This document shows, piece after piece, positions 48,704 to 62,907 of a DNA stretch of 64,000 bases. Position numbers and translations under genes: made by a program. This stretch comes from an uncultured Candidatus Izemoplasmatales bacterium. Lineage in GTDB: Bacteria > Bacillota_I > Bacilli_A > Izemoplasmatales > Hujiaoplasmataceae. The stretch is taken from the NCBI GenBank assembly GCA_964610325.1, contig CAZSVO010000002.1, positions 204,475 to 268,474 on the forward strand. Direction: 5' to 3'. The notes beneath the pieces are model-generated. The model ran no database searches, had not been told where the DNA came from, and saw only the letters and a program-made list of their open reading frames with translations. Numbering within the stretch: position 1 is the first letter of the stretch; each line of letters starts with the position of its first letter.

Positions 48704-48732
48704 AGGATAGATATTGACAACGCTTTCATATT
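48704..48732 (+). promoter_or_regulatory. Consensus sigma-A promoter driving the riboswitch leader
   Basis: TTGACA (48704-09), 17 nt, TATAAT (48727-32). Confidence 0.65.
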
Positions 48733-48754
48733 TAAGTATAATCTTAGTGAAATT

Positions 48755-48954
48755 GAATCGATACAGAGGAGCAAGATACTGGTATTAAGTCTTAGATTTT
48801 TGTAGTGGACGGACAAGGACTTAAGAAGGAGTGTTTTGCCGAAAGGGTTGATTAGTCTGTAAATCAAAACCTTGGTATTTAAACATACAGGATAAATACT
48901 GCCATTTAAATGGAGAGCTGTTATATTTTTGCAAAAAAATATAATGGCTTTTTT
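48755..48954 (+). ncRNA. Putative lysine riboswitch (L-box) with an intrinsic terminator expression platform, predicted ON-type
   Basis: L-box-like conserved blocks AGAGGAGC (48765-72), GCCGAAAGGG (48838-47), GGAGAGCUG (48912-20). Terminator 48917-48954 (gctgttatattttt-gcaa-aaaaatataatggc followed by TTTTTT). Its 5' arm overlaps the putative P1 3' strand. Precedent exists for L-boxes upstream of kamA lysine-catabolic operons. Confidence 0.45.
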
Positions 48955-49041
48955 AAATTATTTTAGGAGCTAGCTATACAAAAATCAAGTAAAAATGATA
49001 AATAATTAAAATTATGATATTTGAACATACTTAAAAAAGGA

Positions 49042-50488
49042 TTAAGAACCCTAAATTTCATATAATGGGTGATTAATTATAAGAGATCATTATAGAAATT
49101 ATCAGTTTTAAGAATTTTGTAAATAGAATGAACCATGTTTTTAGCTATAGCGAAAATAACGGTTGAATGATGTTTGTTTTCTTTACTCATCATCTTAAGA
49201 TATTTGCGTCTAAAATTTATTATCCTTGGTCTTTGGATTCACACAAGCAACCCTAGCGGCGCTATAAATGGCGGTACGTAAATACTTACTACCACGTTTA
49301 GAAATTCGAGTACGCTTACGTTTGTATTTTCCAGACTCATGGACGATGGGTTCAATACCGAAAAGAGATGTATATTTGTGTTTGTCAGGGAACCTACTAA
49401 TATCGCCAGTTTCACCTAGAATAGTCGCGCCATTAATAGGGCCGATACCTGGGACTGATGATATCTTTGGATAAAGAGTCATATGTTGAGAAATAAGTTT
49501 CTTTAGTTCCATATTTTGACCGCTGAAATGAATAATATTAGAAACACAAAACTTAATAAGATAAGCATTTAAGTTATTTGAATTTCCTATTGAGTTTTTC
49601 GCGATATGTTTTATAAGTTTGGCTTGTTCAATACGGTTTGAACGACTACGAATTCTTTGAGCTAAAGATTCAATATGAAGACCTTTATAATCACTTGGTA
49701 AAGGGAAATCATAAAGTAGATCTAAAGTCCATTTTGAAAATGGATTAAAGTGTTTAAGAAACTCGGGGAAGAACATTTGAAGTAATCTTTTAAGTTCGCC
49801 CTTAGCTTTAGTAAGGATTTGATTATTAGAATTATAGTCTCTAGATAATTGTTTTAACTCAAGTAAATGATATAATGGTGGTGTATAGGGATGGAGCCGA
49901 TTCAGGTTATGCATAAGGTGCCTACACACTGCTATAGCGTCAATTTTATCAGTCTTGGTCATGCGAGGTGACGCCGACTTACGACTGAGAGAAACTAACA
50001 TGGGGTTAGTGCAATATACAGTGTAGCCTTTGGATATCAGAAAATCTCGCAGATTATTATGATAGATACCTGTGGCCTCCATTCCTATACGAATATCGTT
50101 AACCGACTTCGTACAGGATTGAATAACTGTGTGAAGTTTTTTAAACCCCGAACGATTATTTTGGATAATAAAGTGATCATAAACGATTTCACCCAAATCA
50201 TTTATGATGATGATATCGTGTTTATCCATTGCGATATCAATGCCAATGAAAATCAAAATAAAAACCTCCTCGTTTGAATTATCCAAACGTCATGAAATCA
50301 CAAACAAATATAAATGTAACCTTGTAAATACACACTCAAGGTGTAACTAGCTAATTCACATTTATCATATAAGTTGGGTTGTACCCTCCCAAGCACACTC
50401 GAAGTGTAAGGAAAGAATGACACACTCCACAACGTTTGTAACTTCATTATAGGAGATTAAATAAATTATTTAAATACATTTTAAGAAC
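49042..50488 (-). mobile_element. IS110-family insertion sequence (about 1.45 kb); boundaries approximate
   Basis: IS110-type transposase. Long left-end non-coding region (about 200 nt) and short right end. The 8-mer TTAAGAAC occurs at both putative junctions (49042-49049 and 50481-50488). No terminal inverted repeats, as expected for IS110. Confidence 0.7.
49210..50286 (-). pseudogene. IS110-family transposase (DEDD N-terminal domain plus IS116/IS110/IS902 C-terminal domain); C-terminal ~40 aa out of frame (frameshift or sequencing error)
   Basis: N-terminal FIGIDIAMDKHD (DEDD motif 1). C-terminal VPGIGPINGATILGETGDISRF and KRGSKYLRTAIYSAA. The canonical tail (RRKYLKMMSKENKHHSTVIFAIAKNMVHSIYKILKTDNFY) continues in the +1 frame to 49095. 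The break is at a TTTT/AAAA run near 49210-49215. Confidence 0.75.
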
Positions 50489-50545
50489 AAAAAAAGAAAG
50501 GAGAAGTATAGTTAAATTAACTTAATTTAATTATACAAGGTTAAT

Positions 50546-50968
50546 ATGAAGAGTTTTACTATTGAAGAGATTAGTTTAGGAGATAATGCCAAAACAAGCA
50601 AAAGATTTGAAGAGGCGGATGTTTTGGACTTTGCAAGGATTTCAACGGATAATAATCCAGCACATATAGATAATGATTATGCATCAAAGACGATTTTTAA
50701 ACAACAAATCGTTCATGGAATGTTGGTTTCTTCGTTGTTTAGTGCTATTTTCGGGACGCAACTACCAGGACTTGGAACAATATATACCAAACAATCATTG
50801 AAGTTTACAAAACCGGTATATTTTGGAGATGAGATTACAGCAGAGGTGATAGTCAAAGATATCAACAAGGAAAGAAATCGAGTTGTTTTTGATTGCAAAG
50901 CATATAATCAATTAGGGGATATTGTTATTATTGGTGAAGCAGAACTGATGCCGCCTAGGAAGGAATAG
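50546..50968 (+). CDS. MaoC-like (R)-specific enoyl-CoA hydratase (hot-dog fold)
   Basis: Hydratase-2 motif ISTDNNPAHID followed by the catalytic His in IVHGML. Confidence 0.7.
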   Translation: MKSFTIEEISLGDNAKTSKRFEEADVLDFARISTDNNPAHIDNDYASKTIFKQQIVHGMLVSSLFSAIFGTQLPGLGTIYTKQSLKFTKPVYFGDEITAEVIVKDINKERNRVVFDCKAYNQLGDIVIIGEAELMPPRKE

Positions 50969-50971
50969 ATT

Positions 50972-51625
50972 ATGAAAGGATTTATTGATGAAAGTAAGTT
51001 TGTTGAGCTTTTAAAGGATGGAATGAGCATATCTGTTGGTGGTTTTTTGACTAACGGTACTCCAGAAAAACTCATTGATTTAGTTGTTAAAAGCAAGGTT
51101 AAAGATTTAACGATAATTTGCAATGATGCTGGATATGAAGATAAAGGTGTCGGTAAATTAATAGTTAATAAACAAGTAAAGAAGCTAATAGCATCACATA
51201 TTGGGACTAATCCTCAGGCTGGGAGTTTGATGCAGTCAGATGATTTAGATGTTGAGTTGGTTCCACAAGGAACATTAGCAGAAAGAATTAGAGCTTTCGG
51301 TGCTGGGTTAGGAGGTATTTTAACTCCTACTGGTGTTGATACAATAGTAGAGATTGATAAAGTGAAAATAGAAGTTCAAGGAAAGACATTTTTATTGGAA
51401 GAAGCTTTGGGGGCTGATATGGCTTTAATAGGCGGAGCTGTGTGTGATAGATTTGGCAACTTGAAGTATTCGCAAACAATGAGGAATTTTAACCCTGTTA
51501 TGGCAACTGCTGCCTCGATAGTTGTAGTCGAACCTTTTATGATGGTTGATGAAATTGATCCAGAGAATGTTATTACTCCAAGTCCTTTTGTAGATTATGT
51601 TTTGGTAGGTGAAAACAATGAATGA
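50972..51625 (+). CDS. atoD: CoA-transferase subunit A (acetoacetate:butyrate/acetate CoA-transferase alpha)
   Basis: 217 aa. Family I CoA-transferase alpha-subunit features (SVGGFLTNGTPE). Paired with a beta subunit. Confidence 0.8.
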   Translation: MKGFIDESKFVELLKDGMSISVGGFLTNGTPEKLIDLVVKSKVKDLTIICNDAGYEDKGVGKLIVNKQVKKLIASHIGTNPQAGSLMQSDDLDVELVPQGTLAERIRAFGAGLGGILTPTGVDTIVEIDKVKIEVQGKTFLLEEALGADMALIGGAVCDRFGNLKYSQTMRNFNPVMATAASIVVVEPFMMVDEIDPENVITPSPFVDYVLVGENNE

Positions 51626-52259
51626 TAAAGAGATAATTGCTTCAAGAATTGCTTTGGAGTTAAATGTTGGAGATTTAGTGAATCTAGGAATAGGTATTCC
51701 GACTTTAGTTGCAGATTATGTCCCGGAAGATAAACATGTTATTTTTCAAGCTGAAAATGGGATTATTGGATTAGGGCCATTAACTGATGAAGAGACAAAC
51801 ATTGTTAATGCTGGAGGGATGAAAGCCACTATTAAACAAGGGGGAGCTTTTATCGATACATTAACATCATTTACTTTCATTCGCGGAGGACATATTGATG
51901 TAACTGTTTTAGGAGCTTTAGAAGTTGATCAAGAGGGATCTTTAGCTTCTTGGATAATTCCCGGTAAAAAGGTTCCGGGCATGGGTGGAGCTATGGATTT
52001 AGTTACAGGAGCAAAAAGAGTAATCATCGCGATGAAGCATACTAATAAAGGCGAATCAAAGATCTTGAAGAAGTGTAATCTACCACTTACTGCCTCACAT
52101 CAAGCTGACTTAATTGTCACCGATATGGCGGTCATGAGTGTTGAACAAGATGGGTTACATCTTTTAGAGGTAAATCCAGCGTATACAATCGAAGAAGTAA
52201 TAAATGCTACTGAAGCAGATTTGATAGTCAAAGACGTCAAACCTATGAAAGGATTATAG
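51609..52259 (+). CDS. atoA: CoA-transferase subunit B
   Basis: 216 aa. Conserved beta-subunit Glu region (SENG... / AENGIIG). Confidence 0.8.
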
Positions 52260-52260
52260 A

Positions 52261-52647
52261 ATGAAAACAATATTAAAGATGAGAATGTCCAATCAAGATG
52301 CACATTATGGTGGAAATTTAGTGGATGGAGCAAAGATATTAGCTTTATTTGGTGATGCAGCAACAGAATTATTGATTAGATTAGATGGTGATGAAGGGCT
52401 TTTTAGGGCTTATGAATCAGTTGATTTTCTAGCACCTATATATGCTGGTGATTTTGTGGAAGTTGAAGCAGAAATAGTTGAAGCAGGAAATACTTCTAGA
52501 AGAATAGAGTTCTTTTGCTATAAAGTTATCCAAGCTAGGCCAGATATTTCTCCAAGCGCTTGTGATGTTTTAGAGGAAAGAGTTTTAACAACAAAGGCGA
52601 TTGGAACTTGTATAGTTCCTAAAGATTTGCAAAGATATGATGGATAA
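52261..52647 (+). CDS. kal: Putative 3-aminobutyryl-CoA ammonia-lyase (hot-dog fold)
   Basis: 128-aa hot-dog-fold protein immediately upstream of kce in a lysine fermentation operon. Function assigned by size and context only. Confidence 0.5.
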
Positions 52648-53467
52648 ATTGATAATAACTTGTGCTATAACCGGAGCAGAAGTCACTAAAGAGCAAAATC
52701 CGGCTGTTCCCTATACAATAGACGAAATGGTTGAAGCAAGTTATCAAGCATATTTAGCTGGGGCATCAATAATACACTTGCATGCAAGAGAAGATGATGG
52801 AACCCCTTCACAAGATAAGTATAGATATCTCCAAATCTATAAAGCGATTAAAGCAAAGATTCCAGATATTATTATTCAGGTTTCTACCGGTGGAGCTTTG
52901 GGTATGTCGAGAGAAGAAAGAGCAGATGTGTTGAATATGTTACCTGAAATGGCAACATTAGATTGTGGTAGTGTTAATTTCGGAGGAGATGACGTTTTTA
53001 TAAATACAGAAAATGATATCATTTATTTTGCAAGCAAAATGAATGATTTCAAGATTATGTATGAGATGGAATGCTTTGAAAAAGGCCATGTTGACCTTAC
53101 AAAAAGATTGATAAAGAAACAAATAATCAAACCACATTTTCATTACAGTTTTGTTTTGGGTGTTAACGGAGGAATGACTGGTGAAGAACGAGATTTTCTT
53201 TTTCTAAAAGATTCTATCCCGCAAGGGTCAACTTTTAGCGTTGCTGGGATAGGCAGATTTGAGTTTTCACTCGCAAGATTATCGATAATTCATGGCGGGC
53301 ATGTAAGAGTTGGTTTAGAGGATAATCTATATATTGAAAAGGGAAAACTTGCAAAGTCAAATAGAGAATTAGTTGAGAAAGTCTGCGAAATAGCTAAAGA
53401 ATACAATCGCGAGATTGCTTCTGTAATTGAGACGAGAAAAATACTTAAAATGGAGACTTCAAGATGA
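52637..53467 (+). CDS. kce: 3-keto-5-aminohexanoate cleavage enzyme (BKACE/DUF849 TIM barrel)
   Basis: 276 aa. N-terminal [11 protein letters not shown]... and IIHLHARE metal-binding His motif characteristic of Kce. Confidence 0.85.
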
Positions 53468-54507
53468 TGAATTTATGTAGATATGGAACTCACAGGGTAA
53501 TTGAACCAATTGGTGCTTTGCCTCAATCAGCTACTAAGATTGATAATAAAATGACTTGTCATTCGAATGAAATTTTGGTTGATGTTGATACTTTAAACAT
53601 CGATTCAGCTTCTTTTACTCAGATAAAAGAAGTTTGTTTTGGCGATGTTTTTCAAATGAAGAAGATGATTTTAGATATAGTAGAAAAACTAGGTAAGATG
53701 CAAAACCCTGTAACGGGAAGTGGTGGAATGTTTCTTGGAAGAGTGAATCAAGTAGGTAGTGATTTGTGTTTAGAAATCAAACCAGGAGATAAAATTGCTT
53801 CTTTGGTTTCTCTGTCACTTACCCCCCTTGAGATTGAAGAAATAATAAGTATTGATTTAAGTAAGGATCAAGTAAAGATAATTGGTAAAGCAATTTTATT
53901 TGAGACAGGAATATATGCTAAAATACCAGATGATTTACCAGAATCATTGGTTCTTTCCGCTTTAGATGTTTGCGGGGCACCTGCGCAAGTAGATGTTTTA
54001 TGTAAACCGGGAAATAGTGTATTGATTATCGGCGCAGCAGGAAAGTCTGGTATCTTATGCTCTAGTCAAGCTAGAAAAAGTGTAGGAGAAAATGGGTTGG
54101 TTATTGGCTTTGTATATTCAAGTAAAGAGAAAAATGATTTAGATAAATTAGGAGTATGTGATTATATAATTCAAGGTGATGCTAGGAATCCGATGGAAGT
54201 ATATGAGAAAGTCAAGGCAGTATGTCCGGATTTAGTAGATGTTACTTTTAACGTGGTTAATGTTCAAAACACGGAGATGTCTTCAATTCTTCCTACAAAA
54301 AATACTGGGACTGTTTATTTCTTCTCGATGGCTACTTCATTTACAAAAGCTGCTTTGGGTGCAGAAGGTATTGCATCAGAAGCTTTAATGATAATTGGAA
54401 ATGGCTATACTAGGGGACATGCTGATTTTACACTGAATCTATTGAGAGAGTCTAAACCTTTATATGATTTATTCAATAGTAGATATGGAGTTAAAGAGAA
54501 TGATTAA
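53464..54507 (+). CDS. kdd: L-erythro-3,5-diaminohexanoate dehydrogenase
   Basis: 347 aa. Rossmann GAAGKSG. Size and position (kce-kdd-kamA) typical of the pathway. Confidence 0.7.
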
Positions 54508-55747
54508 GATTAATGATAGTTACTTGGATAGAAAAATTAAATATTTTCCTAATGTTTTAGAAACCGAGTGGAATGATTGGCATTGGCAAGTTAGGAATAG
54601 AATAAAAAATGTTGATGAACTAGAGAGATATATAAACCTAAGTGAAGATGAGAAAAGGCAAATTTCTACAGTTTTATCTAAGTTTAGGATGGCTATAACA
54701 CCGTATTATCTCTGTCTTATTGATCCCCAAAACCCTGAATGTCCGATTAAAAAACAAGCTATCCCTTCGATTAATGAAATGCATATCGGAATTAATGATA
54801 TGTTAGATCCGTTAGCTGAAGATACAGATTCTCCTGTTCCAGGGCTAACACATCGTTATCCAGATAGAGTTTTATTCTTAATTACTGATATGTGTTCAAT
54901 GTATTGTAGACATTGTACAAGACGTAGATTTGCTGGTCAACACGATTCAAGAATGCCTCAAAACAGAATAGATCAAGCAATTGAATATATTAGAAATACT
55001 AAAGAAATCAGAGATGTTTTGCTATCTGGTGGAGATGCGCTTTTGGTTTCTGATGAGATTTTGGAAGATATTATTAGCAGATTAAGAGAGATAGAACATG
55101 TTGAAGTAATACGTATTGGTACTAGAACACCAGTAGTTTTACCACAAAGAATTACACCTGAGTTTGTTAATATGTTAAAAAAATATCATCCGATTTGGCT
55201 TAATACACATTTTAATCATTATGATGAGATTACTAATGAATCTAAGAAGGCTATTGATTTAATGGCAGATGCAGGTATTCCACTTGGCAACCAATCAGTG
55301 CTTTTAAGAGGTGTAAATGATTCTGTTGAAATCATGAAGAAGTTAGTACAACAACTAGTATCGATTAGAGTTAGACCATATTATATTTATCAATGTGATC
55401 TATCTTTAGGTATTGAACACTTTAGAACTCCCGTTTCTAAAGGTATAGAGATTATCGAAGGATTAAGAGGTCATACCTCTGGATACTGTGTTCCAACTTT
55501 TGTGGTTGATGCACCTGGTGGTGGTGGGAAGATTCCCGTTATGCCAAATTATGTGATTTCACAAGCCCCTGGGAAGATAGTTCTTAGGAATTATGAAGGA
55601 GTAATCTCAACATATACCGAACCAACGGATTATCATAATCACCAGGATAATGGTAGCTACTCTGGAGTAAGTGCACTTTTAGCTGGTAATAAAATATCAC
55701 TTGAACCTAAGGATTTAGAAAGGAAGAAAAGGATATTAAAAGGTTAG
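54500..55747 (+). CDS. kamA: L-lysine 2,3-aminomutase (radical SAM, PLP)
   Basis: Start revised to MIKINDSYL (ATG 54500). CxxxCxxC motif [12 protein letters not shown]. KamA-specific blocks ([12 protein letters not shown]; GGDALL). Confidence 0.92.
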
Positions 55748-56724
55748 TTGAAAACATAAAACCTTATAGAGTTGTTTCTTTTTTTGGCAATTCAAAAAAC
55801 GCTGGAAAAACAACGGTAATGAATGCTTTTATAAGCAATTTTTTAGGTGTGATTGCAATAACTTCAATAGGTATGGATGGAGAGGAAATAGATCAAGTAA
55901 CTTTTCTGGAAAAACCAAGAATTCATGTCAAAAAAGGTGATTATGTTGCTACAGCAATTAAAACTCTTGATAGATTCACTTGTGATTATGATGTTGTAGA
56001 AGAAACTAAAATAACAACAGCTATTGGTAAAATAGTAATCTGTAGAATAAATTCTTATGGAAATGCATTAATAGCTGGTCCAGCAAAAACCAATGATATG
56101 ATTGATTTAATCAACAAACTTAATCTTTATAAGGTTGATAAAATTTTAATTGATGGAGCTTTTTCAAGACAGCATTTCGCAAAGATTTCTCAGGCATCTG
56201 TTTTTGTTGTTGGAGCTAATTACTCTTTTGATATAGGTAAAGTAGTTAAATCAGCTCAGTTGACATATAAGAAATATAATCTTGAGGAAACGAGGATAGA
56301 AAATCAAAAATTTTCCGATTACATTTCTTTAATTAAGAATAATGATGAGGTCATCATTTTGGATTATTCAACTTTAATAGGTAATACTCATAAATTTTTT
56401 AAACAATCCTTTGAAGATGTAAAAGCTATTTACCTTCCCAAAACCCTTACAGGTGAGTTTGTAAAACAGTTGATTAAAAACAGAAGAAAGATTAGTTTTG
56501 ATATTATTATAGATTCAGCCACTAATATACAATTATCAGATGAATTATTGGAACAACTCTTTATGTTGAACATGGAAATTAGTGTAGTAAATCCTATAAA
56601 AATAGTTACAGTATGTTATAATCCCTATTCACCAAGGGGATATGAATTCTTGGATTGTGAATTTAAGGAAAAACTAGAAAAAGTATTGGACATTGAAGTA
56701 ATCAATGTCTTGAAGGAAGTGTGA
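55735..56724 (+). CDS. BioD/CobQ-like P-loop NTPase of unknown function; start codon uncertain (track ATG at 55819; P-loop encoded upstream)
   Basis: In-frame upstream of ATG 55819 is [22 protein letters not shown]. This is a beta-strand plus a G-x5-GKT P-loop of BioD/CobQ spacing, followed by a helix. There is no ATG/GTG/TTG between the stop at 55708 and 55819; only ATT (55735) or ATA (55756) are available. Walker-B-like ILIDGAF occurs later. Confidence 0.45.
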
Positions 56725-56725
56725 A

Positions 56726-58282
56726 ATGAATAAATTGAATTTAGATGAAGCCAAGATAAAGGCTTGTAGAGATTATGCAAACATCATTGCGGATGATGTT
56801 CAGAAATTTATCGATAAACATACCACAAAAAGTGTTGAAAGAAGTGTTTTAAGATTATTAGGAGTGGATGGAATTGATGAGTTTGGTGTTCCTCTACCCA
56901 ATCGAATTGTTGATGATGTTGTAGAAAATGGACAGATTCAACTTGGGATTAGCAGATATTTAGCAAGTGCATTGATTGCTACTAAAATGAACTTAGAAGA
57001 GTTCTTAAAGTATTATCTAGAAAATGACATATCTATCTGTAATTACTCTCTAATAGGAAAAGAAGAGACTTTTTTGGTGCTAAAAACTTATTATGAAAAA
57101 ACTTTTACAAGGATTATTGAAAATAAATTAAAACGTCAGAAGTTCTTAGAGATTTATCCACGTAAAAAAACTGACCTTTATGTAATAGTAGCCACAGGAA
57201 ATATTGACGAGGATGTAATCCAAGCTATTTCAGCTGCAAAAGCAGGAGCTGATATAATTGCGGTAATCCGTTCAACAGGACAAAGTTTACTAGATTATGT
57301 TCCTTATGGGAAAACAACTGAAGGTTTTGGTGGAACATATGCAACGCAAGAGAATTTCAAGATAATGCGTAAAGCGCTTGACGAAGTTAGTCAAGAACTT
57401 CATAGATATATTTATCTAGTCAATTATGCATCAGGGTTATGTATGCCTGAGATAGCCTCTATGGGCGCACTTGAAAGGCTTGACGTTTTGTTGAATGATA
57501 GTATTTATGGTATTATTTTTCGAGATATCAATATGCAAAGAACATTTGTTGACCAATATTTTTCCAGATTAATCAATGCGTTTTCTGGTATTATCATCAA
57601 TACAGGTGAGGATAATTATTTGACAACAGCTGATGCTGTTGAAGAAGCCCATACTGTCACTGCTTCGCAGTTTATAAATGAGGCATTTGCAAAAAAAGCA
57701 TATTTGAAGCCAGAGTTGATGGGATTAGGGCATGCTTTTGAGATTAATCCAGAAGTAGAGGATAGTTTTTTATTAGAGCTAGCTCATGCTGAGTTAGCTA
57801 GAGAGATTTTTCCAAAGGCAGTGTTAAAGTATATGCCGCCAACAAAACATATAAACGGTAATATTTTTAGAGCTTATCAACAAAACGCTATGTTCAATAT
57901 GGTTACTACTTTGACAGGTCAATCGATACATCTGCTTGGAATGATGACAGAAGCTATTCATACGCCTTATATGTCAGATCGTTATTTAGCGATTAAAAAC
58001 GCTGAAATGATACAAAAAACTATGAAGTCTTTGGCTGAAGAAATCAGTTTCAAACCAGGAGGGATAATTCAACAAAGAGCTCATCTTGTATTGGATGAAG
58101 CGTTGCTTTTGTTGAAGAAGATTTCCAAGAGAGGGATGTTCAATGCACTTTCCGACGGTGTTTTTGCTCAGACAAAAAGAGGAATATACAATGGCAAGGG
58201 GCTAGATGGAGTTTTTAAAAAATCAGAAGATTATGTCAATGTCATTTTGGAGAAAATGGAGGAATTCTTAAATGAGAATTAA
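56726..58282 (+). CDS. kamD: Beta-lysine (D-lysine) 5,6-aminomutase alpha subunit
   Basis: 518 aa TIM-barrel subunit immediately upstream of the B12-binding subunit. Size matches KamD (about 516 aa). Confidence 0.8.
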   Translation: MNKLNLDEAKIKACRDYANIIADDVQKFIDKHTTKSVERSVLRLLGVDGIDEFGVPLPNRIVDDVVENGQIQLGISRYLASALIATKMNLEEFLKYYLENDISICNYSLIGKEETFLVLKTYYEKTFTRIIENKLKRQKFLEIYPRKKTDLYVIVATGNIDEDVIQAISAAKAGADIIAVIRSTGQSLLDYVPYGKTTEGFGGTYATQENFKIMRKALDEVSQELHRYIYLVNYASGLCMPEIASMGALERLDVLLNDSIYGIIFRDINMQRTFVDQYFSRLINAFSGIIINTGEDNYLTTADAVEEAHTVTASQFINEAFAKKAYLKPELMGLGHAFEINPEVEDSFLLELAHAELAREIFPKAVLKYMPPTKHINGNIFRAYQQNAMFNMVTTLTGQSIHLLGMMTEAIHTPYMSDRYLAIKNAEMIQKTMKSLAEEISFKPGGIIQQRAHLVLDEALLLLKKISKRGMFNALSDGVFAQTKRGIYNGKGLDGVFKKSEDYVNVILEKMEEFLNEN

Positions 58283-59015
58283 ACCTTATGGGGATACCCT
58301 AAATGACGGAAAAATTCAGATTAGTTTTACATTACCACTTAAAAAGAGTAATCGAGCAATTGCAGCAGCTAAAGAGATTGCGTATGAGATGGGGCTAATT
58401 GACCCAAGTGTTGTTCATGCAGAAGATATCAAAGAAGGTTTTTGCTTTTTTGTGGTGTATGGTAGCGTTGGTTTTTCAATTGATTATGATAAAATTAAAA
58501 TAGAAGAGATATCTTCTAAAACATTATCTAAGGAAGAAATTGAGAGATTAATAACTAGTAATTATGATAGAGAGTTAGTTTTTGTTGGAGCATCGACTGG
58601 TACAGACGCACATACAGTTGGAATTGATGCAATAATGAATATGAAGGGTTTTGCAGGACATTATGGTTTGGAAAGATATAGAGGAATTGCTGCTTACAAT
58701 CTAGGATCTCAAGTACAAAATGAAGAATTCGTTAAGGTAGCAATTGAAAAGCAAGCTGATGTATTATTGATATCACAGACAGTTACTCAAAAAGATGTTC
58801 ATTTGAAAAATATGATTGAGCTTGTTGAGTTGCTTGAAACCGAACAAATAAGAGATAAGGTTATTCTAATTGCCGGAGGCGCAAGAATAACTCATGAGTT
58901 AGCAAAAGAATTAGGTTATGATGCGGGATTTGGACCTGGAAGTTTTGCAGAAGATGTCGCTTCATTCGCTGTAAATGAATTAATAAGAAGAAGAGGTGAA
59001 GAAAATGCCGGTTGA
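58272..59015 (+). CDS. kamE: Beta-lysine 5,6-aminomutase beta subunit (B12- and PLP-binding)
   Basis: DxHxxG cobalamin-binding motif (GTDAHTVGIDAI). Rossmann-like B12 domain. Overlaps the kamD stop. Confidence 0.85.
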   Translation: MRIKPYGDTLNDGKIQISFTLPLKKSNRAIAAAKEIAYEMGLIDPSVVHAEDIKEGFCFFVVYGSVGFSIDYDKIKIEEISSKTLSKEEIERLITSNYDRELVFVGASTGTDAHTVGIDAIMNMKGFAGHYGLERYRGIAAYNLGSQVQNEEFVKVAIEKQADVLLISQTVTQKDVHLKNMIELVELLETEQIRDKVILIAGGARITHELAKELGYDAGFGPGSFAEDVASFAVNELIRRRGEENAG

Positions 59016-59529
59016 TAAGTTAAAACATATAGCAACTAAATTTGGTGATTCTGGTTATTCAAAAAACTATGAAAATCAAAAATTTAAGAAAACAGACATT
59101 CTATTTGAAACCTTAGGAACTATGGATGAATTGAGTTCTTTTTTAGGGTTGACGTACCAATACTCAAAGAATGAGTTCATCAAAGAAATTCAAAGAAAAT
59201 TACAAAATATCAATTCTTTGATTGCTTCTAAACCAGATTCAATGCTATATAATAAATTGATTCAAATCATAGAAGCAGATGTTGAGTTGCTTGAGAAACA
59301 CATTCAAGATTTTCTTGATAAAAAACCTTTGGAAGGCAGATTTTATTTACCCGGAAGTGAAAAGACACAAGCGGGAGCTTATGTTGATGTTTCAAGAACT
59401 CTTGCTAGAAAAGCAGAGAGAAGATTGAATGCTTTTGTAGATATTACAGAGAGAACTGATTTGGAAATGTCAAAAAAGTATATCAACAGATTAAGTGATT
59501 ATCTATTTGTTTTAACCTTCAATACTTGA
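58996..59529 (+). CDS. PduO-type ATP:cob(I)alamin adenosyltransferase
   Basis: 177 aa. N-terminal TKFGDSGYS...LGTMDELSSFLGL matches the PduO-type ATR signature (TKTGDKGTT...GTVDELN). Confidence 0.8.
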   Translation: MKKMPVDKLKHIATKFGDSGYSKNYENQKFKKTDILFETLGTMDELSSFLGLTYQYSKNEFIKEIQRKLQNINSLIASKPDSMLYNKLIQIIEADVELLEKHIQDFLDKKPLEGRFYLPGSEKTQAGAYVDVSRTLARKAERRLNAFVDITERTDLEMSKKYINRLSDYLFVLTFNT

Positions 59530-59572: not shown

Positions 59573-59601
59573 TTTAATTCTAATGATGACTGTGTTATAA
59601 T
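59573..59601 (+). promoter_or_regulatory. Extended -10 promoter (TGtTATAAT) for the glm-mal operon
   Basis: TTTAAT -35-like element. TGTTATAAT at 59593-59601, overlapping the ATG used by the ORF track. Confidence 0.4.
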
Positions 59602-59644
59602 GTTTAATGTTATAAAAACGCTTACAAAAATCGGGGAGAATAGT

Positions 59645-60049
59645 TTGAAAACAATCGTTATTGGCGTTATTGGCGCTGATGTTCATGCAGTTGGAAATAA
59701 GATAATCGAGTACACCTTGACTAAGTCTGGATACAAGGTGATTAATATAGGGGTTTTATCTACACAGGAAGATTTTATTAATGCAGCAATAGAAACTAAC
59801 GCAAATATGATTTTGGTCTCTTCTTTGTATGGTCATGGAGAGATTGATTGTCGTGGAATGAGAGCAAAATGTATTGAATCTGGCATTGAAGATATTTTTT
59901 TATATGTTGGCGGGAATATTGTCGTTGGAAAACAAGATTTTTCTGAAGTGAAAAGAAGATTTATGGATATGGGTTTTAATCGTGTTTACCCACCAGGAAC
60001 ATCAATTGATGAAGCATTGCGAGACATAAAATCAGATTTAGGAGAGTAA
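59645..60049 (+). CDS. glmS: Glutamate mutase sigma subunit (B12-binding)
   Basis: Start revised to TTG 59645 (RBS GGGGAG 7 nt upstream). Gives a 134-aa protein colinear with clostridial GlmS ([18 protein letters not shown]; [17 protein letters not shown]; LYGHGEIDC; [10 protein letters not shown]; [11 protein letters not shown]). DxHxxG motif present. Confidence 0.9.
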
Positions 60050-60050
60050 T

Positions 60051-61460
60051 ATGTCTAATTACTTACTGATTGATTTTGGATCAACATTCACGAAATTATG
60101 TGCAGTAGATTCAATAAATGAAAGTGTTATTGGGACTGCTTCTTATTCAACAACAGTAGAAACAGATATTACAATTGGTTATCATAAGGCTTTAGAAATG
60201 CTTTTTGATAAAATAGGAAAAGTGATAGATTTCGAGCAGGTTATTGCCTGTTCTTCAGCAGCTGGCGGCCTAAAAATGGCCGCTATTGGTCTAGTGAAAG
60301 AACTTACTGTAGAAGCAGCTAAAAGAGTTTGTCTTGGCGCAGGAGCTAAAGTCGATTTAGTCTTTTCACATCATCTCAATAAGTCCGAAGTAAATCAAAT
60401 CGTTGAGAAAAAGATTGATATAATTCTCTTGGCGGGAGGATCAGATGGCGGGAACTTTGAATCGGTTATCTATAATGCAAGACTCTTAGGTAAGGCAGGG
60501 ATAAAGGTTCCAATTGTTTATGCAGGAAACAAATCTGCTCAAGATGAAATTAAAGAGATTTTTGATGAATATCAAATCAATGGTTATATTTGTGAGAATG
60601 TTATGCCTGAAATCAATGTTTTAAATATTGAAAGTGCTAAGGAACAAATTAGGGAAATTTTTCTGAAGCAGATTATTGAGGCAAAAGGCATAAAAAAAAT
60701 CGAAGAACAAATCAACAAGGTTATACTACCAACACCCCTAGCTGTTTTAGAAGCTGCTAAATTGCTTTCTGAAGGCTATCTTAATGAGAAAGGTTTAGGG
60801 GAAATAGTTGTTGTTGACATCGGAGGAGCAACCACAGATATCTACTCAATCTGCACTACTACTAAAAGGTCTGATGTTATAATCCAAGGATTAGAAGAAC
60901 CTTTTGCAAAAAGGACTGTTGAAGGTGATTTGGGCATGCGCTATTCAGCTTTGGGAATAATTAAATCACTTTCAGAAAGAGAAATTAACTTTATCAAAGA
61001 AGACAAAAAGATAGACATTATTGAGGAAGTGAAGAAAAGATATAATAACGTTACTTTTTTACCTGAGAATGAGCATGACGAGTTGGTTGAAAAGTTTTTA
61101 GCAGAGATTTGTGCTTATCGAGCAATGCACAGACACTGCGGGAAAATTACTGAAGTATTGACTCCAATGGGTAAAGTTTATAATCAAATAGGTAAAGATT
61201 TATCAGAAATAAATTATGTTATTGGAACAGGTGGAATTATAATTAAATCAAAATACAAATATGATATTTTAAAACAAACAACCAATATTTTGAATAACCC
61301 AATCGAATTAAGACCAATTGAGCCTGATTACTTAATCGATTCCGAGTATATTATGGCAGCGATGGGCCTTTTGTCTAAGATAGAACCGATGTTGGCCTTG
61401 AGGATAATGAAAAAATATTTAGTGAACATTAGAGGTAATACTGATGAACTTAGTGAATAA
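60051..61460 (+). CDS. glmL: Glutamate mutase component L (MutL/GlmL chaperone-reactivase)
   Basis: 469 aa. ASKHA-like N-terminal [12 protein letters not shown]. Canonical position between glmS and glmE. Confidence 0.8.
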
Positions 61461-62907
61461 GAAGTTAACAGAAGAAGAGTTTCTTGAACAAAGAAAAGAA
61501 GTTCTTAAAGCATGGCCAACAGGTAATGATGAAGATTTAGATTTTGAAAGAGCTATTGATTACTTAAAAAAGCTTCCAGAGCATAAGAATTTCGCTTTGG
61601 TATTGAATCGAGCTAAGGCTGATAATGATACATTGATTCAACCAAGAGCAGGTGTTCCTGTTTTAGAAGAGCATATTAAACTACTCAATTATTTGGAAGA
61701 TTCTGGAGCTGATTGTCTCCCATCAACGATTGATAGCTATACGAGACAAAATCGTTATAATGAGGCTCAAAAAGGTTTAGAAGAGTCAATAAGTCTTAAA
61801 AGGGCACTTCTAAATGGGTTCCCCGTGGTTAATCACGGAGTTCAAAATTGTAAAAAAGTTACTGAATCAGTTAACAGACCACTAGAAGCAAGACATGGCA
61901 CACCAGATGCAAGGTTATTGTCTGAGATTATTCATGCGGCTGGATGGACATCTAATGAAGGTGGCGGAATTTCATATAATATACCATACGCAAAAAATGT
62001 ACCGTTGGAAGTATCGATAAGAAATTGGCAATATGTAGACCGTTTGGTTGGTTATTATGAGGATAGAGGTGTTAAGATAAATCGTGAACCTTTTGGTCCT
62101 TTGACTGGAACTTTGGTTCCACCATCTATTTCTAACTCAGTCATGATTATCGAAGCATTGTTAGCAGCGGAACAAGGAGTTAAAAATATTACTGTGGGTT
62201 ATGGAATGGGTGGAAATCTTATTCAAGATGTAGCTGCAGTTCACGCTCTTTATGATCAAACAATAGAATATCTTGAATATTATGGTTATAAGGGTATGGA
62301 GATATCTACAGTATTCCATCAATGGATGGGAGGATTTCCAGCGGATGAATCTGAAGCAATGGCTTTGATATCTTATAGTTCTTCAGTAGCTGCTTTATCG
62401 AAAGCAACTAAGCTTATCACAAAATCGCCACATGAATCTGTTGGAATTCCGACAATGGAAGCTAATGGATTAGGAGTGAAAGCTTCAAAGTTCATTGTCA
62501 ATATGTTAAAAGATCAAAGTATTTCAGAAAGTGAAGATCTTTTGTTAGAAATGGAGCAAATTAAAAAAGAAGTTAAATCATTATTGGAGGTTGTTTATCA
62601 AGTTGGTGAAGGAGATTTAGCTGTTGGAACAGTTAGAGCTTTTGAACAAGGGTTGTTGGATATCCCATTTGCGCCAAGTAGATATAATGCAGGAAAAGTA
62701 TTTCCGGCTAGAGATAATGATGGGAGAATCCGAATTCTTGATTTCGGAAATTTAGCTATGGATGAAGATATTAAAGCATTTCATTATGGAAAGATTAAGG
62801 CGCGCGCTGATTCAGAGAATCGAGAGGTATCATTTCAGCTAACTGTTGACGATATCTATTCTGTCAGCAAAGGAAAATTAATAGGAAGGCCCCTGAGGAA
62901 ACAATAG
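61444..62907 (+). CDS. glmE: Glutamate mutase epsilon (catalytic) subunit
   Basis: 487 aa. N-terminal colinearity with clostridial GlmE ([19 protein letters not shown]...DYLKKLP..KNFA...QPRAGV). Confidence 0.9.

What the first reader, a model, noticed from the sequence alone, without database searches (positions are those of the whole stretch)
48704..48954. Candidate activating lysine riboswitch upstream of the lysine fermentation operon
A consensus sigma-A promoter drives a roughly 200-nt leader. The leader contains blocks resembling conserved L-box elements (AGAGGAGC, GCCGAAAGGG, GGAGAGCUG).

It ends in a strong intrinsic terminator: a 14-bp stem, GCAA loop and U6. The 5' arm of the terminator (GCUGUUAUAUUUUU) overlaps the 3' strand of the putative P1 helix (ACAG/CUGU). 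Ligand-stabilised P1 would therefore prevent terminator formation. This is an ON switch, appropriate for a catabolic operon. Most characterised lysine riboswitches are OFF switches.

Only comparative predictions of kamA-associated L-boxes exist (for Thermoanaerobacter and Fusobacterium). An experimentally tractable ON-type lysine riboswitch would be notable.
Basis: partly seen in the sequence, partly recalled or inferred. Interest (0 to 1): 0.65.

Follow-up and report, generated by a model that had tools for sequence, protein, structure and literature searches.

The report
Lysine ON-riboswitch cut off by IS
This is a genuine lysine-sensing RNA switch of the already-predicted "turn-on" type that normally sits directly in front of lysine-fermentation genes, but in this genome a 1.57-kb mobile element has landed in the ribosome-binding site between the switch and the genes.

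Summary
Window 48756-48928 (+) is a full-length lysine riboswitch aptamer (Rfam RF00168, 70.2 bits against a gathering score of 30). It lies behind a perfect TTGACA-17-TATAAT promoter. It is followed by the described 14-17 bp hairpin, GCAA loop and U6.

The terminator's 5' arm contains the J5/1 nucleotides and the P1 3' strand. P1 and terminator are therefore mutually exclusive, and there is no antiterminator. That is ON logic.

The same promoter, aptamer and overlapping terminator occur in 61 of 80 related loci, mostly Izemoplasmatales/Mycoplasmatota genomes assembled from metagenomes (MAGs). In 59 of these 61 the aptamer ends 33-59 nt before the first operon gene. Covariation supports both the terminator and the L2-L3 kissing loop.

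The organism is not Fusobacterium-like. And an IS110-family element (48970-50539, transposase antisense) is inserted in the Shine-Dalgarno sequence of the first operon gene (reconstructed empty site TTTTAGG-AG-GTTAAT-ATG). The switch is now 1.6 kb from the operon, and whether it still controls it is unresolved.

ON-type lysine riboswitches before lysine-catabolism genes have been predicted since 2003 and listed in later surveys. This is a new member of a known, experimentally untested kind.

The parts
48714..48742 (+). Sigma-70/SigA-type promoter: TTGACA (48714-19), 17-nt spacer, TATAAT (48737-42)
   Evidence: 12/12 match. The same perfect consensus sits at a similar distance from the aptamer (3-26 nt, most often 14) in 56 of 60 related loci.
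48756..48928 (+). Lysine riboswitch aptamer (RF00168), five-way junction P1-P5
   Evidence: 70.2 bits against gathering score 30, E 2.6e-16, model positions 1-182. The MFE of the nascent transcript reproduces P1-P5.
48763..48766 (+). P1 5' strand core, ACAG
   Evidence: Pairs with CUGU at 48918-21. CAG/CUG is invariant in all 62 sequences and the fourth pair is A-U in 56 and G-U in 4. The two outer Rfam P1 pairs are mostly unpaired.
48806..48810 (+). L2 loop segment UGGAC, kissing partner of L3
   Evidence: Pairs with 48855-59. 95.4% of cells paired, 49 doubly compensated cells, 0/500 shuffles.
48855..48859 (+). L3 loop segment GUCUG, kissing partner of L2
48918..48921 (+). P1 3' strand core, CUGU, shared with the terminator's 5' arm
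48914..48954 (+). Intrinsic terminator: 14-bp core stem (48917-30 / 48935-48) extendable to 17 bp, GCAA loop 48931-34, U6 48949-54
   Evidence: -17.6 kcal/mol, z -6.0. It is part of the MFE of the whole leader. The homologous hairpin shows 97.4% paired cells, 63 doubly compensated cells and 0/500 shuffles.
48965..48969 (+). Left half of the ancestral Shine-Dalgarno sequence (AGGAG), now orphaned. AG at 48968-69 is the left copy of the IS core dinucleotide.
   Evidence: Relatives have ...UUUUAGGAGG-N5-9-AUG at this position. Junction analysis.
48970..50539 (-). IS110-family insertion sequence, 1570 bp including one core copy. Ends in transposase orientation: CT|TGTATAATTAA ... TATAGCTAG|CT
   Evidence: Pfam DEDD_Tnp_IS110 plus Transposase_20. 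NCBIfam IS110 family RNA-guided transposase, 181.7 bits against cutoff 140. Ends defined from 11 homologous copies and from an RE-LE junction in L096.
49210..50256 (-). IS110-family transposase CDS (348 aa from ATG; 358 aa if the TTG at 50286 is used)
50292..50441 (-). 5' non-coding region of the IS with bridge-RNA-like architecture: two stem-loops with internal loops. Its own promoter TTTAAA-17-TATAAT is at 50474-50446.
   Evidence: The second loop carries UAGCUAG and UACAAG, which match the IS ends. The first loop carries UUGGGAGGGUA, which is near-complementary to the SD target. No Rfam family matches.
50106..50143 (+). Terminator-like hairpin plus U6 on the strand antisense to the transposase. 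It is a candidate block to read-through from the riboswitch promoter.
   Evidence: -10.6 kcal/mol. Hairpin and U6 are retained in all 11 homologous IS copies. It lies in coding sequence, so protein constraint may explain part of the conservation.
50537..50545 (+). Residual ribosome-binding region of the first operon gene: AAGG (IS-derived A-AG plus host G), then UUAAU
50546..59529 (+). Lysine fermentation operon. Order: MaoC-family dehydratase, CoA-transferase A/B, kal (52261-52647), kce, kdd, kamA, kamB, kamD, kamE, PduO-type adenosyltransferase. Glutamate mutase genes follow to 62907.
   Evidence: Pfam. NCBIfam equivalogs above cutoff for KAL, KCE, KDD, lysine 2,3-aminomutase, KamB, and lysine 5,6-aminomutase alpha and beta.

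Best explanation
The leader at 48714-48954 is a lysine riboswitch that works as a transcriptional ON switch.

A strong constitutive promoter starts a transcript of about 205 nt. Without lysine, the 3' strand of P1 (CUGU...) and the adjacent J5/1 nucleotides (GAG) pair with downstream sequence. This forms a 14-17 bp hairpin followed by U6, and transcription stops. With lysine bound, the five-way junction holds the short P1 (ACAG/CUGU). That removes the base of the hairpin. Only a 9-bp A-U hairpin remains, 5 nt away from the U tract, and RNA polymerase reads through.

Ancestrally the read-through transcript ran straight into the ribosome-binding site and start codon of the first gene of the lysine-fermentation operon, about 45 nt downstream. 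In this genome an IS110-family element has since inserted, antisense, into the middle of that Shine-Dalgarno sequence (AGG-AG-G). The switch is intact but is now 1.6 kb from the operon. Its control over the operon is probably weakened or lost.

Shown: aptamer identity, the alternative structures, their conservation and covariation, and the insertion and its exact site.
Inferred: lysine binding, ON behaviour in vivo, and the effect of the IS on expression.
For: - Aptamer: RF00168 at 70.2 bits, full length. The L2-L3 kissing loop covaries.
- Alternative folds: the nascent RNA up to 48932 folds as P1-P5 at -40.0 kcal/mol. The full leader folds at -54.4 with the terminator replacing P1. Forcing P1 gives -44.8 and leaves only a distal A-U hairpin.
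- Conservation: 61 of 80 loci that encode a homologue of the first operon gene carry RF00168. That is 61 of the 77 with at least 200 nt of upstream sequence. In 59 of the 61 the aptamer ends 33-59 nt before the ATG.
- In 59 of the 61 the scan shows a hairpin plus U run whose 5' arm begins in GAGCUGU. L079 has the same arms in the alignment. L060 has no U run of 4 or more.
- Terminator covariation: 12 aligned pairs are 97.4% paired, with 63 doubly compensated cells in 5 pairs and 0/500 shuffles. Slid controls reach at most 60%.
- Promoter: perfect TTGACA-17/18-TATAAT in 56 of 60 loci.
- Gene content: the downstream genes are lysine-fermentation enzymes by NCBIfam equivalogs.
- Insertion: relatives read ...GGCUUUUUU-N10-25-AGGAGG-N5-9-AUG. 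The window reads ...UUUUAGGAG|IS|GUUAAUAUG. The IS ends and CT core come from 11 homologous copies.
- The same junctions occur in 4 independent metagenome assemblies that span the whole element. Four shorter contigs match as far as they reach.
Against: - No ligand-binding or transcription data exist for this or, as far as I could find, any natural ON-type lysine riboswitch.
- P1 is only 4 conserved base pairs. The terminator state is about 10 kcal/mol more stable than the P1 state. Switching must therefore be kinetic and depend on tertiary stabilisation. This is assumed, not shown.
- The terminator has only 2 G-C pairs, and its efficiency is untested.
- On the uncoupling claim: the aptamer, the terminator and all operon ORFs are intact, so selection may still act on the whole arrangement.
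Confidence: 0.85

Rival explanations
1. The switch still governs the operon in this genome. Lysine-dependent read-through transcripts cross the 1.57-kb IS, antisense to the transposase. They reach the first operon gene, which is translated from the residual AAGG ribosome-binding site.
For: Promoter, aptamer, terminator and all operon ORFs are intact. The insertion is identical in the 4 independent metagenome assemblies that span it, which fits a tolerated, fixed state. No convincing outward promoter lies between the IS and the gene; the best + strand sites score 8/12. Transcription from upstream is therefore the simplest source of operon mRNA.
Against: A hairpin plus U6 on the + strand at 50106-50143 is conserved in all 11 IS homologues and looks like a terminator for exactly such read-through. 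The Shine-Dalgarno sequence is reduced from AGGAGG to AAGG. No expression data exist.
Confidence: 0.3
2. It is an OFF switch or a translational switch, like the characterised lysC-type lysine riboswitches.
For: All experimentally characterised lysine riboswitches are OFF switches (PMC11477304; PMC10974012).
Against: There is no antiterminator element. The terminator's 5' arm is itself the P1 3' strand plus J5/1, so aptamer folding and terminator folding exclude each other. In relatives the ribosome-binding site lies 10-25 nt beyond the U tract and is not part of the hairpin. The regulated genes are catabolic.
Confidence: 0.03
3. The aptamer is a specificity variant that senses a related metabolite (for example beta-lysine or another pathway intermediate) rather than L-lysine.
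For: Rare variants of other riboswitch classes have altered ligands, for example the 8-oxoguanine variants of guanine riboswitches (PMC10556655, listed). This clade has a distinct gene association.
Against: The hit is full length with all conserved junction blocks (AGAGG.GC, GCCGAA, UGG, CUG.CA, GGAG.GCU) at their consensus identities. L-lysine is the pathway substrate and the logical inducer. Nothing in the alignment marks a changed pocket, although I did not map individual binding-pocket nucleotides.
Confidence: 0.05

Closest known systems
Predicted ON-type lysine riboswitches (LYS elements) upstream of lysine-catabolism genes (kamA / kal-kce operons) in Thermoanaerobacter tengcongensis, Fusobacterium nucleatum and Clostridium sticklandii. 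Sources: Rodionov et al. 2003 as cited in PMC2258182, and PMC5584792.
   Same: Same aptamer family. Same association with the lysine-to-acetate/butyrate fermentation genes. Same proposed logic, in which ligand binding buries part of the terminator stem.
   Different: Different host lineage (Izemoplasmatales/Mycoplasmatota-like MAGs). The first regulated gene is a MaoC-family dehydratase rather than kal or a regulator. This copy is separated from its operon by an IS. I could not read Rodionov 2003, so a base-by-base comparison of the expression platforms was not made.
Characterised OFF-type lysine riboswitches (B. subtilis lysC, E. coli lysC, T. maritima asd)
   Same: RF00168 aptamer with a five-way junction, an L2-L3 kissing loop and conserved junction sequences.
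   Different: Those use a separate antiterminator (or SD sequestration and RNase E sites) and repress biosynthesis genes. Here P1 overlaps the terminator directly, P1 is only about 4 conserved bp, and the genes are catabolic.
Other transcriptional ON riboswitches with direct overlap of P1 and terminator (adenine pbuE/ydhL, glycine gcvT), as grouped in PMC2258182
   Same: Same platform design. There is no antiterminator, and the aptamer's closing helix competes with the terminator's 5' arm.
   Different: Different aptamer class and ligand.
IS900-type IS110-family elements that insert between the ribosome-binding site and the start codon (Doran et al. 1997, cited in PMC8141618). IS110/IS621 bridge-RNA-guided recombinases (PMC11208160, PMC11187229).
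   Same: DEDD transposase. No terminal inverted repeats. A CT core dinucleotide at both junctions. A 5' non-coding region with two guide-bearing loops. Orientation-specific insertion into translation-initiation regions.
   Different: Host is a Mycoplasmatota-like lineage. There is no hed-like ORF on the complementary strand. SD targeting in this lineage is inferred from only 8-9 insertion sites.

Membership tests
Lysine riboswitch (Rfam RF00168, L box) | Covariance-model score at or above the curated gathering score, over the full model | tested here: met
   70.2 bits against 30, model positions 1-182, E 2.6e-16.
Lysine riboswitch (Rfam RF00168, L box) | Five-helix junction (P1-P5) with conserved junction sequences | tested here: met
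   The Rfam alignment places AGAGG.GC, GCCGAA, UGG, CUG.CA and GGAG.GCU at consensus positions. The MFE of the nascent leader gives the five-way junction. These columns are invariant in the 62-sequence alignment.
Lysine riboswitch (Rfam RF00168, L box) | L2-L3 loop-loop (kissing) tertiary contact | tested here: met
   5 pairs, 95.4% paired, 49 doubly compensated cells, 0/500 shuffles, slid controls at most 43.5%. The window has UGGAC/GUCUG.
Lysine riboswitch (Rfam RF00168, L box) | Loop E (sarcin-ricin) and K-turn motifs in P2 | not tested
   Only covered implicitly by the CM score. I did not examine the motifs individually.
Lysine riboswitch (Rfam RF00168, L box) | Selective binding of L-lysine | not testable with these tools
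   Needs in-line probing, ITC or equilibrium dialysis.
ON-type (activating) transcriptional riboswitch | Intrinsic terminator whose stem shares nucleotides with the aptamer's P1, with no separate antiterminator | tested here: met
   The terminator's 5' arm at 48914-48930 includes J5/1 GAG and P1 3' CUGU. This is conserved in the 61 related loci, with L060 lacking a U run of 4 or more, and it covaries.
ON-type (activating) transcriptional riboswitch | Ligand increases read-through or expression | not testable with these tools
   Needs transcription assays or reporters.
ON-type (activating) transcriptional riboswitch | Lies in the 5' UTR immediately upstream of the regulated gene | tested here: inconclusive
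   Met in 59 of 61 relatives, with a gap of 33-59 nt. In the window the gap is 1617 nt because of the IS.
IS110 family insertion sequence | DEDD (RuvC-like) N-terminal domain plus Transposase_20 C-terminal domain | tested here: met
   PF01548 at 103 bits and PF02371 at 85 bits. NF033542 at 181.7 bits against cutoff 140.
IS110 family insertion sequence | No terminal inverted repeats, with a short core dinucleotide present at both junctions and at the circle junction | tested here: met
   CT at both ends in all copies, and an RE-CT-LE junction in L096. Only weak A/T-rich inverted matches occur near the ends.
IS110 family insertion sequence | Non-coding bridge/seek RNA upstream of the transposase gene, with loops complementary to target and donor | tested here: inconclusive
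   Guide-like matches are present (UAGCUAG, UACAAG, UUGGGAGGGUA). Several homologues show guide-to-flank agreement. I made no formal structure or covariation test, and there is no Rfam model hit.

The most novel reading that the evidence does not exclude
The IS-split arrangement may be functional. Lysine-gated read-through from a perfect-consensus promoter would run antisense through the IS110 transposase and bridge-RNA genes and on into the fermentation operon. One riboswitch would then couple lysine availability both to operon expression and to antisense silencing of a mobile element.

More modestly, this clade may be the most convenient natural lysine-ON switch for a first experimental demonstration. 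It has a 4-bp P1, direct terminator overlap and an invariant consensus promoter.
Probability: 0.2. Interest if true: 0.55.

Novelty: new member of a known kind. Interest (0 to 1): 0.4.

Why it matters
Natural lysine-activated riboswitches have been predicted for over twenty years. As far as the accessible literature shows, none has been tested, and engineers have had to evolve synthetic lysine-ON switches instead.

This work shows that a compact, highly conserved ON design is the rule in front of the lysine-fermentation operons sampled here (61 of 80 loci, mostly Izemoplasmatales). The design consists of a perfect promoter, a 4-bp P1 and a terminator that overlaps P1 and J5/1. The 61 relatives also supply natural sequence variants for experiments.

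The particular copy in the window is less suitable as a physiological model, because an IS has cut it off from its operon. It does illustrate how mobile elements that target translation-initiation sites can uncouple a riboswitch from its genes.

Tried and rejected
1. **Fusobacterium origin, implied by the finding.** Homologues of the first operon gene are from Izemoplasmatales/Mycoplasmatota-type MAGs at no more than 78% identity. The window's own species is not among the genome representatives.
2. **An IS-free allele of the same strain.** All 8 contigs that encode the identical first-gene protein match the window upstream as far as they reach, and 4 of them span the whole IS. The exact transposase occurs only at this site.
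3. **Reading Rodionov et al. 2003.** The paper is not held. I relied on what PMC2258182 and PMC5584792 say about it.
4. **The generic terminator scan.** It found nothing because it requires 3 G-C pairs. I used direct folding and a relaxed custom scan instead.
5. **Rfam for a bridge-RNA family in the IS.** Nothing at gathering score. At E up to 1, the only match was a chance RsaE hit at 22.7 bits against a gathering score of 79.
6. **A six-pair P1 as in the Rfam consensus.** The two outer pairs are unpaired in most sequences. Only ACAG/CUGU is conserved.
7. **My own early label 'kal' for the first operon gene.** This was wrong. It is a MaoC-family dehydratase, and the true kal is 52261-52647.
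8. **An outward promoter at the IS end that could drive the operon.** The best sites score only 8/12.

Full report
**1. Observation**

- A TTGACA-17-TATAAT promoter lies at 48714-48742. It scores 12/12 and is the only perfect site in the 2.2 kb scanned.
- The three quoted L-box blocks are present.
- Rfam's lysine riboswitch model RF00168 matches 48756-48928 on the + strand over its full length. The score is 70.2 bits against a gathering score of 30, with E = 2.6e-16. It is the only Rfam family that reaches its threshold anywhere in the 64-kb window.
- The hairpin GCUGUUAUAUUUUU-GCAA-AAAAAUAUAAUGGC followed by U6 is at 48917-48954. Folded alone it extends to 18-19 pairs at -17.6 kcal/mol, with z = -6.0 and no shuffle as stable.
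- The generic terminator scan missed it only because the stem has two G-C pairs and the scan requires three.

**2. Switching logic in this sequence**

- The whole leader (48748-48960) has an MFE of -54.4 kcal/mol. In that fold P2-P5 are formed and a 17-bp terminator replaces P1.
- Truncated at 48932, before the terminator's 3' arm exists, the RNA folds into the five-way junction closed by P1 = ACAG (48763-66) / CUGU (48918-21), at -40.0 kcal/mol.
- Forcing that P1 in the full leader gives -44.8 kcal/mol. Only a 9-bp all-A/U hairpin remains, separated from the U tract by AUGGC.
- The terminator's 5' arm therefore consists of the J5/1 nucleotides GAG, the P1 3' strand, and a few more bases.
- No separate antiterminator exists.
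- Ligand-stabilised aptamer folding and terminator folding exclude each other, which is ON logic. This part is inference from structure. No binding or transcription data exist.

**3. Comparative evidence**

The protein encoded by the first operon gene (50546-50968) has its closest relatives in Izemoplasmatales / Mycoplasmatota-type MAGs, at 78% identity or less, not in Fusobacterium.

A profile of 21 homologues retrieved 80 loci from species-representative genomes. Rfam found RF00168 in 61 of them.
- Three of the 19 negative loci have fewer than 130 nt of upstream sequence.
- In 59 of the 61 the aptamer ends 33-59 nt before the start codon.
- The exceptions are L075 (76 nt) and L073. In L073 a short-chain dehydrogenase gene has been added as a new first gene.

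In 59 of the 61 the scan shows a hairpin plus U run whose 5' arm begins in GAGCUGU. L079 has the same arms in the alignment, and L060 has no U run of 4 or more. The ribosome-binding site follows 10-25 nt after the U tract and is not sequestered.

On a 62-sequence alignment (A2):

| Feature | Pairs | Cells paired | Doubly compensated cells | Shuffles reaching it | Best slid control |
|---|---|---|---|---|---|
| Terminator | 12 | 97.4% | 63 (in 5 pairs) | 0/500 | 60% |
| L2-L3 kissing contact | 5 | 95.4% | 49 | 0/500 | 43.5% |

- The proximal terminator pairs, where the 5' side is fixed by the aptamer, vary only on the 3' side (G-U to G-C, U-G to U-A). This is what a shared strand predicts.
- P1 is short in this clade. 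CAG/CUG is invariant in all 62 sequences, the fourth pair is A-U in 56 and G-U in 4, and the two outer consensus pairs are mostly unpaired.
- The promoter is a perfect TTGACA-17/18-TATAAT in 56 of 60 loci, 3-26 nt (most often 14 nt) before the aptamer. This suggests a constitutively strong promoter with control exerted entirely at the terminator.

**4. What the leader controls**

NCBIfam equivalog models score above their cutoffs for:
- 3-aminobutyryl-CoA ammonia lyase (kal, 52261-52647)
- 3-keto-5-aminohexanoate cleavage enzyme (kce)
- 3,5-diaminohexanoate dehydrogenase (kdd)
- lysine 2,3-aminomutase (kamA)
- the KamB reactivase subunit
- lysine 5,6-aminomutase alpha and beta

CoA-transferase subunits, a MaoC-family dehydratase and a PduO-type adenosyltransferase complete the set. 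'Lysine fermentation operon' is correct. Glutamate mutase genes follow.

**5.

Between the terminator and the operon lies a minus-strand ORF (49210-50256/50286) with both IS110-family transposase domains. It also hits the NCBIfam 'IS110 family RNA-guided transposase' model at 181.7 bits against a cutoff of 140.

Thirteen homologous loci from metagenomes were compared by BLAST and aligned at both ends.
- In transposase orientation, the conserved element runs from CT|TGTATAATTAA... to ...TATAGCTAG|CT.
- L096 contains an end-to-end junction, GCTAG-CT-TGTATAAT, which identifies CT as the core dinucleotide.
- In window coordinates the element is 48970-50539, which is 1570 bp with one core copy.
- Removing it reconstructs TTTTAGG-AG-GTTAAT-ATG. 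This is a canonical AGGAGG Shine-Dalgarno sequence 5 nt before the start codon.
- The reconstructed distance from aptamer to ATG is 47 nt, matching the relatives.

The insertion is real. The same sequence across both junctions is present in four independent ENA and JGI assemblies that span it. Four shorter contigs of the same species match the window as far as they extend, one of them with 5 mismatches. I found no IS-free allele.

**6. Consequences for regulation (unresolved)**

- The Shine-Dalgarno sequence of the first gene is reduced to AAGG.
- Transcripts that pass the riboswitch terminator must cross the IS, antisense to its transposase.
- On that strand, at 50106-50143, there is a hairpin plus U6 (-10.6 kcal/mol) retained in all 11 homologous IS copies. 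It lies in coding sequence, so protein constraint may explain part of the conservation.
- No convincing outward promoter precedes 50546. The best sites score 8/12.
- On the other hand, the promoter, aptamer, terminator and all operon ORFs are intact.
- I rate continued riboswitch control of the operon at about 0.3.

**7. Comparison with what is known**

- Barrick & Breaker 2007 state that certain lysine riboswitches have ON logic and bury pieces of the terminator stem on ligand binding, citing Rodionov et al. 2003 (PMC2258182).
- Mukherjee et al. 2017 list lysine riboswitches upstream of kal/kce in C. sticklandii, F. nucleatum and Thermoanaerobacter, and call them positively regulating (PMC5584792).
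- Reviews and engineering papers describe the characterised natural lysine riboswitches as OFF switches. They report evolved synthetic lysine-ON versions (Zhou & Zeng 2015 as cited there).
- In four of the six literature searches I looked for an experimental test of a natural lysine ON switch and found none.

The element is therefore a new member of a known, predicted kind in a lineage where it had not been described. It is not a new mechanism.

**8. Side observation on the IS**

- In 8-9 independent insertion sites of this IS lineage, the end next to the 5' non-coding region is followed, on the opposite strand, by 2-9 nt and then the start codon of a long ORF.
- The other flank begins CC, so the target reads (A/T)GG-AG-G in gene sense. 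These elements insert, always antisense, into Shine-Dalgarno sequences.
- The 5' non-coding region has two stem-loops with internal loops. One carries UAGCUAG and UACAAG, matching the IS ends. The other carries UUGGGAGGGUA, near-complementary to the target.
- In several homologues the corresponding segments agree with their own flanks: AUGGAGG with an ATGG-AG-G site in L093, AGGGAGGG in L098, and 9-10 nt matches on the other side in L096 and L097.
- The window's own guide fits its site less well.
- Targeting of translation-initiation signals is known for IS900 of the same family (Doran et al. 1997, cited in PMC8141618). This too is a known behaviour in a new lineage.

**9. Verdict**

It is incomplete about context because of the IS insertion, and it overstates novelty. 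Interest is 0.4.

Noticed in passing
window 48970-50539 (minus strand); homologues L090-L101: This IS110-family lineage appears to target Shine-Dalgarno sequences. In 8-9 independent sites it sits antisense, with its CT core inside (A/T)GG-AG-G, 2-9 nt upstream of a long ORF's start codon. Bridge-RNA-like guide segments (UUGGGAGGGUA; UAGCUAG; UACAAG) match the target and the IS ends, and in several homologues they vary together with their own flanks. IS900 is a known precedent (Doran 1997, cited in PMC8141618).
   Followed up: partly
window 50106-50143 (+ strand, inside the transposase CDS): Hairpin plus U6 on the strand antisense to the transposase, retained in all 11 homologous IS copies. 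It is possibly a built-in terminator against host read-through, which these elements would always face given where they insert. Protein-coding constraint is not excluded.
   Followed up: partly
window 50506-50536: Near-perfect 15-nt inverted repeat (GTATAGTTAAATTAA C TTAATTTAATTATAC) at the IS end next to the operon. Other copies have palindromic sequence at the same place. In transposase orientation it is followed by a U-rich run, so it may stop transcription entering the IS from outside.
   Followed up: no
60 related loci plus the window (L009-L082 subset), about 3-26 nt upstream of each aptamer: The promoter in front of this riboswitch is a perfect 12/12 TTGACA-17/18-TATAAT in 56 of 60 loci across divergent lineages. 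That is an unusually strict conservation of the full consensus.
   Followed up: partly
L045 729-804: In another Mycoplasmatota MAG, a group II intron 3' end (RF00029, 40.4 bits) with a reverse-transcriptase/maturase-like ORF upstream ends about 20 nt before the RBS and ATG of the homologous first operon gene. This is a second kind of mobile element landing between the expected riboswitch terminator and the gene. The contig starts inside the intron, so the riboswitch itself could not be seen.
   Followed up: no
L073 2264-2989: In one relative, a short-chain dehydrogenase gene has been added between the riboswitch and the MaoC-family gene, making it the first riboswitch-controlled gene.
   Followed up: no
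window 59600-62907: Glutamate mutase genes (mutS/glmS-like B12-binding subunit, MutL, MutE) directly follow the lysine-fermentation genes on the same strand. This suggests a combined B12-dependent amino-acid fermentation cluster.
   Followed up: no
window 50546-50968: The first gene of the operon is a MaoC-family acyl dehydratase, not kal. The survey literature speaks of riboswitches 'upstream of kal', and the true kal here is the fourth gene (52261-52647).
   Followed up: yes
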